DNA from: Trichomonas gallinae
Lineage: Eukaryota
Length of the DNA: 37,069 bases
Assembly (NCBI GenBank): GCA_008369845.1
Contig: MRSU01011155.1
Coordinates: 1 to 37,069, forward strand
Direction of reading: 5' to 3'
Shown here: positions 11,626 to 14,179 of the stretch, piece after piece
Layout: each line of letters begins with the position of its first letter
How positions within the stretch are numbered: the stretch's first letter is position 1
Notes under the pieces: model-generated
Database searches by the model: none
The model's input: the letters and a program-made list of their open reading frames with translations, nothing else
What the model was told of the DNA's origin: nothing
Program-made: the position numbers and the translations under genes

Positions 11626-12006
11626 ATGAGTGCTTGCCCGCAATGTGAACCAGACCCAGTTCCTCATGTAATAGACTTATCAGACGATAGCGACGATTCC
11701 AACTACAAGAGCGATTTATGGGAAGATAAAATAATTGTGCTTCCTCCACAACAGAAATGGGATAAGCCATCTGGAAAAGCTCTCTATGTAACTCAAGTAT
11801 CTATGACAATACCACCTACAGGAAGTGAAGGAACTTTCGGTATTCTCAATGCTGTAATGGCTGAAGGTCTTTACGCAATTTGCAAAATATTCCCTCATCA
11901 ACCAAACCAGCCATTAAATCTTGCATGGAGCCAAAATCAGGAAGTATCCTTCATCAATTCAGGAAATAGACCAATCAGTGTCGCTCTCCTTGTAAAATGC
12001 GATTAA
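11626..12006 (+). CDS. Small nucleoplasmin-like (NPL) domain protein with N-terminal CxxC and acidic SIM-like motif
   Basis: First in-frame ATG at 11626. LYVTQVSM...YAICKIFPHQPNQPLNLAWSQNQEVSFINSGNRPISV resembles the NPL core of FKBP39/HD-tuins. HVIDLSDDSDDS is SIM-like. Confidence 0.65.
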   Translation: MSACPQCEPDPVPHVIDLSDDSDDSNYKSDLWEDKIIVLPPQQKWDKPSGKALYVTQVSMTIPPTGSEGTFGILNAVMAEGLYAICKIFPHQPNQPLNLAWSQNQEVSFINSGNRPISVALLVKCD

Positions 12007-12317
12007 GATTTGTTCGAATACTCAATAAAATGTATGTAAATGTTTTAATTATCTTACATCTATTACATATATTAATATCTTTTAATTTATATGATAAAAA
12101 TATAATGTATTAATAATAGTTTAGGAGCCAAACATTTGGGCATAAAGAGCTGTTTTATTTGCATGCTTAGTTTAAAAAGAAGAAAGTTGAAATTTTAAAA
12201 TTTATGCCAAAATTTAATTTTCTTTAAAGAATGTATGGAAATTACTCCAAAGATTAAAATCATGTAATGGTTTAATAAATGGAATCTATAAAGCAGCGGC
12301 TTTATTGAATAAAAAAT

Positions 12318-12428
12318 CTGTGTGTTAGTTTGTTTTCTAATATTTGTTTGGGTCAGTGTTGCAAGTTTTCCTCATACTTCAGTGAGGTTCTCACAGTATC
12401 ATCAAACCCATTTAAATCGAATACATAC
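12318..12428 (-). other. Spliceosomal intron (trichomonad type, 111 nt)
   Basis: 5' splice site GTATGT at 12428-12423 and the exact 12-nt fused branch point/3' splice site ACTAACACACAG at 12329-12318, same strand, with typical length. Confidence 0.88.
12349..12410 (-). ncRNA. Box C/D snoRNA, intron-encoded (about 62 nt)
   Basis: Minus strand TGGG-TT-TGATGA (C, 12404-12399)-guide-CTGA (D', 12382-12379)-AGT-ATGAGGA (C', 12375-12369)-guide-CTGA (D, 12356-12353)-CCCA. All four boxes are in order, closed by a TGGG/CCCA terminal stem. Confidence 0.85.
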
Positions 12429-13069
12429 TATTCCCAAGATGCCTTGAAAGATTCTGGCTGGACAAAACCGCCAAGATCGTCTTTATCTGTTATCTGACTT
12501 TACATTTGACAATTAGATAATTTACGTGTCATTTTGATATATTTCTTGTTTTTTGACAGTTTACAATTCATTATTTTTGTCAATTTGACTGTTTACATCA
12601 TAGATATTTTTGCCACAATGATAGTTTACAAAAAACAGTGCATGGAAAAATTAAAATTCGTTTAGAATTTACAGCGAACAATTTGATTTTATGTAAATTC
12701 TCTGAGTAGAAAAAATCAAACGCATTCAGTTATATTAACAGAAATACACGGACCATTCATCACAAAAAAAAAATTCCAGTTACGGCGAAAATTTTACTCA
12801 TTTTCTCAGCTGCCGTTATATTTGTTGTGAGTTACAGATTAGAAATATTAGCTCAAAAACAGAAAATCTATAAATGGTCAGAATGAAGCAAAAAAATGCC
12901 GCAAAACAGATTTTTTTGGAATTGCTTGCTGGCCCTCTAAACTACTGTGAATGAATTTAAAAGACCGAGTATTAAATAAGTTAACGGATTATTATTGTTT
13001 TTTGCTCTCAATTTTCGCGGGTTCATTTGAAATTTTGAGAGGGTCTGTTTGATGCTCTAACTGTGTCTA

Positions 13070-14179
13070 ATGGCGATGAGGAGACCCGTATCCCAAGAGT
13101 ACCACAGCTCACTGGTTTTTGACGCTTTGGAGTGTCATTCTGACCCAAAGGACCTTATATCTTCAATCTTAAACCAGGATGTTAGCGATATGCCTAACAA
13201 TGAAGATATGCTGTGGAAAAGACTATACGATCTTACGTATCATGGTGGGAAAAGGATGAGAATAATCCAAAGACCCACTTTTACGGACATCGATTCGATA
13301 GTAAAGTGCATAGACGAAGCTTCTAAAATTGTTGTAATTTTAGGAGCGGGAGGAAGCGTAGGACCCGACTTTCGTTCGCCCGGAGGACTCTATGACTCCA
13401 TTGCGAAGGAAGGTGTCTTTGATGATCCTTGCCAAGTCTTTGATTTGGACTCCTTTATGGATGATCCATCTATTTTCTGGAAATTTGCGCATACGATCTT
13501 TCCAGAAAGATATCCTAGGCACTCTCAAGCGCATTATTTCTTGGAAAACCTTGAAAAGCGCGGAAAATTGCTCAGATTGTATTCTCAGAACGTCGACGCG
13601 CTCGATGTAGGTATAAAACCGGAGCATTTGAGGTGTGTTCACGGATCGTGGAGGGAGTCGCACTGCATGAACTGCGATGCCCTTCATTCAATTGAAGATA
13701 TTAGAGAGTATGTAGAGAGAGGAGAAATCCCGAAGTGTATATTCTGCGGTGGCAATATAAAGCCCGGCATTGTTTTCTTTGGTCAATCGGTGAATCTGAA
13801 TGACTTCGAATTAGAAAACGACGCCAGAGAAGCCGATCTATTGCTGGTTATCGGAACTTCTCTCAGCGTGGCACCTGTTTCAGAGATTCCTAAGATGATG
13901 AAACACGTTCCTTCCATATTAATTAATAGAGCGACTGTCAAACCTCGTTTTTCCGCGGAGCTACTTGGTGAGTGCGATGATGTTGTCGATTTCATTGAGG
14001 CGATGCTTGGTTGGTCTTCCGAAGACAAGAAGATTGTGGACATTAATGCAATCACGAAATTCAAGTCCAATAAGTTCATTTTCCCTTCCGAATCTCCGTT
14101 TGCAACAAGAGTGATCCCAACCACGCTCACAAACTTCCTTGCTACGTCCGTACCTGTTGATGTCGATGACCTCGCATGA
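13070..14179 (+). CDS. Sir2-family NAD-dependent deacetylase (class I-like sirtuin)
   Basis: GAGGS..PDFRS, SQNVD, HGSW (catalytic His), CMNC/CIFC zinc site, KPGIVFFGQ, GTSLSVAP, INR. Confidence 0.95.
   Translation: MAMRRPVSQEYHSSLVFDALECHSDPKDLISSILNQDVSDMPNNEDMLWKRLYDLTYHGGKRMRIIQRPTFTDIDSIVKCIDEASKIVVILGAGGSVGPDFRSPGGLYDSIAKEGVFDDPCQVFDLDSFMDDPSIFWKFAHTIFPERYPRHSQAHYFLENLEKRGKLLRLYSQNVDALDVGIKPEHLRCVHGSWRESHCMNCDALHSIEDIREYVERGEIPKCIFCGGNIKPGIVFFGQSVNLNDFELENDAREADLLLVIGTSLSVAPVSEIPKMMKHVPSILINRATVKPRFSAELLGECDDVVDFIEAMLGWSSEDKKIVDINAITKFKSNKFIFPSESPFATRVIPTTLTNFLATSVPVDVDDLA

What the first reader, a model, noticed from the sequence alone, without database searches (positions are those of the whole stretch)
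12230..12510. Apparently non-coding two-exon snoRNA host transcript (SNHG-like), divergent from Sir2
Seen: upstream of the intron the only nearby minus-strand ATGs (12532, 12505) share a frame that stops at TAA 12502-12500. A 23-codon ATG-less stretch (SQITDKDDLGGFVQPESFKASWE) follows and ends exactly at the junction, as TA|A when spliced or TA|G when unspliced. Exon 2 is AT-rich with TAAA signals. Inference: the host is a short lncRNA, a decayed small gene, or a non-AUG micro-ORF, kept as a vehicle for the snoRNA. Transcript ends are estimates.
Basis: partly seen in the sequence, partly recalled or inferred. Interest (0 to 1): 0.7.

Follow-up and report, generated by a model that had tools for sequence, protein, structure and literature searches.

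The report
Trichomonad "inactive" introns carry snoRNAs
A 111-base stretch with textbook intron signals, lying between two genes of a trichomonad protist, holds a small RNA predicted to guide ribosomal RNA methylation and is likely cut out of a very short non-coding transcript; the same layout is seen in most of the long introns that published Trichomonas studies set aside as inactive, so these would be working guide-RNA genes.

Summary
Observation confirmed. The window is a trichomonad. Minus strand 12428-12318 is its only type-A intron pattern and holds boxes C, D', C', D and a terminal stem. Its orthologue is row 1 of the unvalidated-intron table of PMC12316389 (T. vaginalis; T. stableri row 12, compared by eye): 30 of 31 bases over guide, D' and C' are identical. 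By eye 17 of the 18 canonical long introns in that T. vaginalis list have full C/D anatomy; the paper never says snoRNA. A second trichomonad in metagenomes gave 10 distinct such loci, with no long ORF across the junction and an upstream GGNCCA motif in 7. The likely target is the LSU site of SNORD79-type guides (trichomonad rRNA not seen). Not shown: splicing (only an unspliced contig) and transcript ends. Against a purely non-coding exon 1: the 23 codons score as coding-like, though no homologue exists. Sir2 adjacency looks incidental. The scan noted such hosts before in fungi and other protists, not in trichomonads.

The parts
12318..12428 (-). Type-A spliceosomal intron (111 nt), predicted
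   Evidence: Only match to GYAYGY N41-178 RCTAACACAYAG in the window; 3 of 300 resampled windows; pattern from PMC6260720; orthologue in S3 Table of PMC12316389
12423..12428 (-). 5' splice site GTATGT
   Evidence: consensus
12318..12329 (-). Fused branch point and 3' splice site ACTAACACACAG
12349..12410 (-). Box C/D snoRNA, about 62 nt, closed by a 4-bp stem (UGGG 12410-12407 / CCCA 12352-12349) in kink-turn register
   Evidence: 12 of 15 weak Rfam matches are C/D-box families, all below gathering score
12399..12404 (-). Box C (TGATGA)
12383..12393 (-). D' guide, 11 nt identical in T. vaginalis and T. stableri; predicted LSU rRNA target at the SNORD79-type site (Rfam LSU model position about 2332)
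   Evidence: by eye
12379..12382 (-). Box D' (CTGA)
   Evidence: identical in orthologues
12369..12375 (-). Box C' (ATGAGGA)
   Evidence: identical in orthologues
12353..12356 (-). Box D (CTGA); the bases just before it differ in T. vaginalis, so no second guide is claimed
12429..12460 (-). Putative short exon 1 (5' end unknown; 12460 is a guess from the motif, it may reach about 12507)
   Evidence: inference; no RNA evidence
12431..12499 (-). 23-codon ATG-less frame with coding-like codon usage (signal from ACA 12490 on, preceded by ATA); origin unresolved
   Evidence: no Pfam match; no small-protein homologue
12457..12472 (-). Candidate promoter motifs GGCGGTTT (12472-12465) and TGTCCAGC (12464-12457), one base off the GGNCCA motif of sister loci
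   Evidence: the M3 consensus is recalled, not from a call
12500..12532 (-). 10-codon ATG frame closed by TAA; not coding-like (score -5.4)
12250..12317 (-). Putative exon 2 with TAAA at 12304-12301 and 12274-12271; 3' end is an estimate
   Evidence: UAAA 10-30 nt before transcript ends in PMC13548475; contig of run X1 covers 12261-12431
13070..14179 (+). Neighbour: Sir2 family deacetylase, head-to-head; not part of the element
11626..12006 (+). Neighbour: 126-aa ORF, weak nucleoplasmin-like match, tail-to-tail; not part of the element

Best explanation
The locus is an intron-shaped element holding a box C/D snoRNA that is conserved across trichomonads, and it is likely spliced out of a very short non-coding transcript whose exons would be discarded, releasing a guide predicted to direct one 2'-O-methylation in large-subunit rRNA. 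Shown: splice signals, four boxes, terminal stem, absence of an AUG frame over the junction, an orthologue with an identical guide in two Trichomonas species, and the same layout at many loci. Inferred: Pol II starts some 10-80 nt before the 5' splice site; the spliceosome excises the lariat; debranching and trimming, limited by the bound C/D proteins, give a mature RNA of about 60 nt (established pathway in animals and yeast, recalled); the ligated exons, about 100 nt, are unstable or too short for ordinary RNA-seq, which would explain why such introns were scored inactive. The 11-nt D' guide would pair with the LSU strand read by SNORD79-type snoRNAs; position -5 is C, so the trichomonad base should be G where the eukaryotic consensus has A.
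For: (1) Single full type-A pattern in the window, 3 of 300 by chance. (2) Orthologue in T. vaginalis (S3 row 1) and T. stableri (row 12): 30 of 31 identical bases across guide, D' and C', stem kept, intron flanks diverged, both splice ends kept (by eye), in species whose Sir2 is 65% identical to the window's. One neighbour gene tested has T. vaginalis as best named hit, 69%. (4) Four of these ten have human C/D families as best Rfam match: SNORD31 E 2.5e-4, SNORD18, SNORD29 twice, all under gathering score; three pair 13 nt directly before D' with eukaryotic LSU (L027, L053, L077). (5) 8 of the 10 share their guide with an intron in the S3 Table (by eye). (6) All seven loci with long flanks lie in gaps between ORFs; AUG frames across the junction are absent in 5 of 10 and 20-55 codons in the other 5. 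(7) GGNCCA within 60 nt upstream in 7 of 10, background 0.9%, 0 of 200 random sets as strong. (8) Rfam SNORD79, sn2429 and snoMe28S-Am2634 align to the window's guide in one register.
Against: Splicing is not shown: the only contig over the locus is unspliced and no joint was seen (run X1, RNA status a guess, depth 5.8); the T. vaginalis orthologue is listed as 'No RNAseq evidence', the T. stableri one as 'Not assembled, low coverage'. The 23 codons score +8.1 bits under the window's codon table: above 2000 of 2000 stop-free shuffles, 278 of 278 wrong-frame pieces, 5211 of 5211 overlapping intergenic windows and 88% of 285 real gene pieces; synonymous-only P 0.008; none of the 10 sister loci shows this (best +0.2). 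The window lacks an exact GGNCCA, and has neither HCAHW nor CCTTT in the 60 nt before the intron. The guide matches the eukaryotic LSU fragment at only 8 of 11 conserved positions (11 of 16 overall), with a mismatch at -5 itself; trichomonad rRNA was not available. Whole-window Rfam scan found nothing. Folding energy is unremarkable (z -1.7). The ten sister loci probably come from one species (L027 = L112).
Confidence: 0.75

Rival explanations
1. Same intronic snoRNA, but exon 1 here is coding-derived: a micro-ORF of about 21 codons started at the ATA at 12493 (near-cognate start, mutated or miscalled ATG), or the surviving 3' end of a decayed gene behind whose stop codon the intron cassette sat.
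For: Coding-like codon score that begins right after that ATA; stop exactly at the junction in both forms; in L035, L039 (both copies) and L051 the intron starts 50-62 nt after the stop of an upstream ORF, so 3'-UTR hosting is plausible in this family; T. vaginalis has one validated 3'-UTR type-A intron.
Against: No homologue among 1.84 billion representatives: all 9 hits are long repeat proteins of unrelated families scoring by summed weak repeats; no Pfam match; no such frame at 10 sister loci; the orthologues carry no ORF remark in S3; motif shared with sister loci lies inside the frame.
Confidence: 0.17
2. The splice-like signals serve only to mature the snoRNA (spliceosome recruitment or first-step cleavage, or independent transcription from just upstream), without a ligated two-exon product.
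For: No spliced read for the orthologue in high-coverage T. vaginalis RNA-seq and for 14 of 18 such introns; only an unspliced contig here; exon 1 cannot exceed about 50-60 nt at several loci unless it overlaps the upstream gene.
Against: The complete 3' end including the terminal CAG is kept in all 11 loci examined here (partly by construction of the search pattern) and in S3 rows 1-18; 4 of 18 are listed as low coverage rather than absent; a product of about 100 nt would be lost in standard libraries (inference).
Confidence: 0.07
3. Dead intron or chance arrangement with no function.
For: Published status 'inactive'/unvalidated; no Rfam match at gathering score.
Against: Guide, boxes and both splice ends conserved across three species while the rest of the intron diverges; same layout at 10 further loci with rRNA-complementary guides.
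Confidence: 0.01

Closest known systems
Non-coding snoRNA host genes of vertebrates (SNHG1/UHG, GAS5) and fungi (recalled; search listings)
   Same: A C/D snoRNA inside an intron of a transcript with no useful reading frame; splicing is the presumed release route.
   Different: One intron and one snoRNA per gene, exons of tens of bases, whole unit about 200 nt; box D lies only 18-27 nt before the branch adenosine, much closer than the 60-90 nt from the 3' splice site recalled for human; set in a genome with about 63 validated introns; a GGNCCA upstream motif rather than a tested 5'TOP.
T. vaginalis / T. stableri unvalidated type-A introns, S3 Table of PMC12316389 (read: passages, S3 whole, S2 UTR rows)
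   Same: Row 1 (T. vaginalis) and row 12 (T. stableri) are the orthologue of this intron.
   Different: Listed there as putative introns without RNA-seq support; the main text has 0 occurrences of 'snoRNA'. Their boxes C and D are variants (TGAAGA, CAGA), canonical here.
Rfam SNORD79 (RF00152), sn2429 (RF01167), snoMe28S-Am2634 (RF00537)
   Same: D' guide aligns in the same register and reads the same LSU strand. Human SNORD79 is itself intronic in GAS5 (recalled).
   Different: Scores 14-21 bits against gathering scores 47-50; guide differs at -5 and -9, so the target base would be G, not A; shorter body.
T. vaginalis C/D snoRNAs of Chen et al. 2009 (PMC2817412; read: passages; supplement could not be searched)
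   Same: C/D snoRNAs in Trichomonas.
   Different: [quoted passage not shown] Whether any of their eight equals one of these could not be checked.

Membership tests
Trichomonas type-A spliceosomal intron | 5' GYAYGY, spacer 41-178 nt, 3' RCTAACACAYAG | tested here: met
   12428-12318
Trichomonas type-A spliceosomal intron | Removed from the transcript in vivo | tested here: inconclusive
   One unspliced contig, no joint; orthologues unvalidated in RNA-seq
Box C/D snoRNA | Boxes C and D with terminal stem in kink-turn register | tested here: met
   4-bp stem at the 3-nt-bulge offset; kept in orthologues
Box C/D snoRNA | Internal D' and C' boxes | tested here: met
   CTGA 12382-12379, ATGAGGA 12375-12369, identical in orthologues
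Box C/D snoRNA | Guide of 10 nt or more before D or D' complementary to the organism's own rRNA or snRNA | tested here: inconclusive
   11-nt guide conserved in three species; 8 of 11 to a non-trichomonad LSU fragment; own rRNA not available
Box C/D snoRNA | Stable small RNA bound by fibrillarin, target methylated | not testable with these tools
   needs northern, pull-down, RiboMeth-seq
SNORD79 family (RF00152) | Score at or above Rfam gathering threshold | tested here: not met
   20.9 against 47 bits; not filed as a member, only as a likely functional counterpart
Non-coding snoRNA host gene (SNHG type) | No AUG-initiated reading frame in the spliced product | tested here: met
Non-coding snoRNA host gene (SNHG type) | Exons without coding signal or constraint | tested here: inconclusive
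   Coding-like codon usage but no homologue; orthologous flanks not available
Non-coding snoRNA host gene (SNHG type) | Own spliced, capped transcript with mapped ends | not testable with these tools
   contigs cannot show ends
T. vaginalis Inr/M5 core promoter | HCAHW or CCTTT shortly before the start | tested here: not met
   Neither within 60 nt of the 5' splice site (motifs from PMC7370421); TCAAA occurs further up at 12509

The most novel reading that the evidence does not exclude
Intron-poor trichomonads keep a dedicated class of minimal splice-and-discard genes, at least 15 distinct ones in T. vaginalis (18 copies beside 63 validated introns), whose only product is a C/D snoRNA, driven by their own GGNCCA promoter element and conserved in place across the order. 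The 'inactive' or 'intergenic' introns set aside since 2005 are these genes, and ribosome maturation is one reason the spliceosome is kept.
Probability: 0.6. Interest if true: 0.78.

Novelty: new variant of a known kind. Interest (0 to 1): 0.66.

Why it matters
[quoted passage not shown] It supplies a ready list of predicted rRNA methylation guides for a human parasite, ties splicing to ribosome making in a lineage that lost nearly all introns, and extends non-coding snoRNA hosts to Metamonada, which bears on their age. Every step is directly testable in T. vaginalis with the published coordinates.

Tried and rejected
No genome held for the window; metagenome records could not be searched further. 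Whole-window Rfam scan: 0 matches at E<=1; L058 alone: 0. No RNA holder on record; X1 is a guessed RNA run, X2-X4 gave nothing over the locus; uncovered stretches in X1 are no evidence. Trichomonad rRNA could not be obtained: pattern scans gave 0 in viral contigs and one unrelated bacterial hit; paper search for the guide gave 7 unrelated papers. First guess of target, the LSU strand after GAGAGGAAC (L120), dropped: about 6 of 11 by eye against 8 of 11 and three Rfam families for the other site. Early idea of an M3/M5 ribosomal-protein-type promoter: CCTTT absent, M3-like motif in only 1 of 10 sister loci and 31 times in the window; not supported. Five loosely matching scan loci (L031, L041, L067, L074, L085) were dropped before counting: other assemblies, no regular geometry. 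Intron-plus-box pattern in viral contigs: 0; Sir2 relatives there: 0. Multiple alignment of different loci uninformative (one row was on the wrong strand). Read-through protein: 9 hits, all repeat artefacts. Not held, so not read: Vanacova 2005, Smith 2011, Simoes-Barbosa 2008 (snRNAs) and 2012 (H/ACA snoRNAs); any of them may already describe intronic C/D snoRNAs. Chen 2009 supplement not searchable; Chen 2011 and Yeh 2026 supplements held no match.

Full report
Setting. The window is nearly intronless and gene-dense. Its Sir2 (13070-14179) is 65% identical to a T. vaginalis G3 protein, with Histomonas and Tritrichomonas at 49-51%, so the organism is a trichomonad other than T. vaginalis. No whole genome was held.

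Observation. The intron at 12428-12318 fits the type-A pattern validated in T. vaginalis (PMC6260720, part 2 of the text read; PMC13548475, Results read), is the only such match in 37 kb, and arises in 3 of 300 resampled windows. No other 3' splice motif of type A or B exists in the window, so there is no sign of an upstream exon.

The RNA inside. Box C (12404-12399), D' (12382-12379), C' (12375-12369) and D (12356-12353) are canonical or near, and a 4-bp stem closes them in kink-turn register. Rfam finds nothing in the whole window; on 161 bases it gives 15 weak matches, 12 of them C/D families, none at gathering score. Three (SNORD79, sn2429, snoMe28S-Am2634) share the D' guide register. Against a eukaryotic LSU fragment fetched from viral contigs (L121) the guide's complement matches 11 of 16 bases, 8 of the 11 conserved ones. 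Two of the three mismatches (-5, -9) fall on bases that the Rfam LSU model marks as helix-paired, where lineage-specific compensatory changes are expected; the third is at -1. I infer a 2'-O-methyl guide for the base at model position about 2332, a G in trichomonads; about 70% likely, since trichomonad rRNA was not obtained.

Orthologue. S3 Table of PMC12316389 (read whole) lists introns found by motif but not validated by RNA-seq. T. vaginalis row 1 and T. stableri row 12 share with the window, by eye, 30 of 31 bases over guide, D' and C', the GGG/CCC stem and both splice ends, while the segment before box D and the intron flanks differ. So the D' guide is under selection and the D-side segment is not.

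It is a class. By eye, T. vaginalis rows 1-18 (the canonical long introns with no ORF remark; the other two type-A rows overlap ORFs and lack the motif) have C/D anatomy: 17 with C-like box, D-like box (CTGA, CCGA or CAGA) and stem, one (row 7) with box C and a conserved guide but no clear D. They form 15 distinct sequences. The paper's text has no occurrence of 'snoRNA' (passages read). The pattern did not include a 5' splice site, yet 12 of 12 loci from two assemblies have GTAWGT just before box C, against 1 of 105 others. They are 10 distinct elements (L027=L112, L039=L040), probably from one species; a neighbour of L058 has T. vaginalis as best named hit (69%), and a Sir2 relative at 64% sits on a contig of the same length as that of L053. 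Geometry is tight: 5' splice site to box C 12-18 nt (24 here), box D to branch A 18-26 nt (27 here). Best Rfam matches include SNORD31 (E 2.5e-4), SNORD18 and SNORD29; L027, L053 and L077 pair 13 nt with eukaryotic LSU before D'. Eight of the ten share a guide with an S3 intron (L035, L039, L051, L053, L058, L077, L116 with T. vaginalis rows 16, 2, 17, 18, 7, 8/13, 6; L027 with T. stableri rows 11/13). The scan required a canonical box C and was cut short, so it is a lower bound and did not return the orthologue of the window's RNA.

Hosts. The seven loci with long flanks lie in short gaps between ORFs, in tandem behind (five) or head-to-head with (two) unrelated genes, so the Sir2 neighbourhood is not a feature. 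AUG frames across the junction are absent in 5 of 10 and 20-55 codons in the rest; all have TAAA within 90 nt after the intron. GGNCCA occurs within 60 nt upstream in 7 of 10 (background 0.9% of 6703 mostly coding windows; top of an unbiased enumeration; 0 of 200 random sets as strong). The window has TGTCCAGC at -36, seven of eight bases equal to L058 and L102, matching only the relaxed motif (background 4.4%). I read this as a promoter or start element of this gene class; untested.

The exon-1 peptide. A stop-free run of this length is common (P 0.20), but its codons are not: +8.1 bits, beyond all 2000 shuffles, 278 wrong-frame pieces and 5211 overlapping intergenic windows; synonymous-only P 0.008. 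The signal starts after an ATA at 12493; the 10-codon ATG frame before the TAA scores -5.4. No sister locus shows this. A search of 1.84 billion representatives with the read-through frame gave 9 hits, all long repeat proteins (GLUG, FG-GAP and others), and Pfam gives none. The stretch may be a relic gene end or a micro-ORF particular to this species, or promoter DNA that scores high by accident; this is open.

RNA evidence. Run X1 (RNA by guess, a relative about 96% alike) has a 173-base contig over 12261-12431, unspliced, depth 5.8, with 9 other letters and one inserted base that would lengthen the terminal stem; no joint was reported. The T. vaginalis orthologue is listed with no RNA-seq evidence. 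Splicing is therefore inferred from conservation of both splice ends, not observed.

What is in print. Searches. Chen 2011 calls intronic snoRNAs highly unlikely in T. vaginalis (part 1 and passages read); Simoes-Barbosa 2008 mentions intronic snoRNAs as unpublished data (passages); Wang 2018, Hudson 2019, Callejas-Hernandez 2025 and Yeh 2026 have 0 occurrences of 'snoRNA' in the main text. Four relevant papers were not held and one supplement was not searchable, so prior description cannot be excluded. The scan's own notes show such hosts in fungi and other protists, none in trichomonads.

Verdict. A real, conserved intronic C/D snoRNA in a probably non-coding mini-host (0.75). The kind is known; the minimal one-intron form, as a sizeable share of all introns in an intron-poor lineage and overlooked in the surveys I could read, is a new variant. 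Interest 0.66.

Noticed in passing
L039/L040 (oriented 1158-1257 and 2485-2584): Two identical copies of the intron-snoRNA cassette with about 50 nt of 5' and 110 nt of 3' flank, 1.3 kb apart, each 50-62 nt behind the stop of a different ORF, with a GTAAGT 5' splice site; suggests the mini-gene is copied as a unit.
   Followed up: partly
L051 and L058 introns: Two related elements carry a 9-10-nt complement of the LSU loop CGAGAGGAA right after box C, followed by a hairpin instead of clear D'/C' boxes; both conserved in T. vaginalis (S3 rows 17, 7). May be processing or chaperone snoRNAs rather than methyl guides.
   Followed up: no
window 12787-13069 (+): The X1 contig for Sir2 begins 283 nt before the ATG, long for a trichomonad 5' UTR; it holds a 26-codon upstream ORF (12874-12954) that is frameshifted in X1.
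   Followed up: no
window 12505-12585 (-): Four TGTCA/TGACA-type words clustered upstream of the element, possibly factor sites shared with Sir2.
   Followed up: no
L119 and L120: Two viral contigs each carry a roughly 130-nt piece of eukaryotic LSU rRNA abutting AT-rich virus-like sequence; chimera or real capture not examined.
   Followed up: no
window 11626-12006 (+): 126-aa ORF with a weak nucleoplasmin-like match (E 0.0036, below cut-off), covered by an X1 contig.
   Followed up: no
L027 2305-2376: A tRNA gene lies about 125 nt downstream of the snoRNA intron on the opposite strand.
   Followed up: no
PMC12316389 S3 rows 2, 6, 15, 16, 18: Long extra stems outside the snoRNA bring the splice sites together, as described for long T. 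vaginalis introns in PMC6679479 (passages).
   Followed up: no
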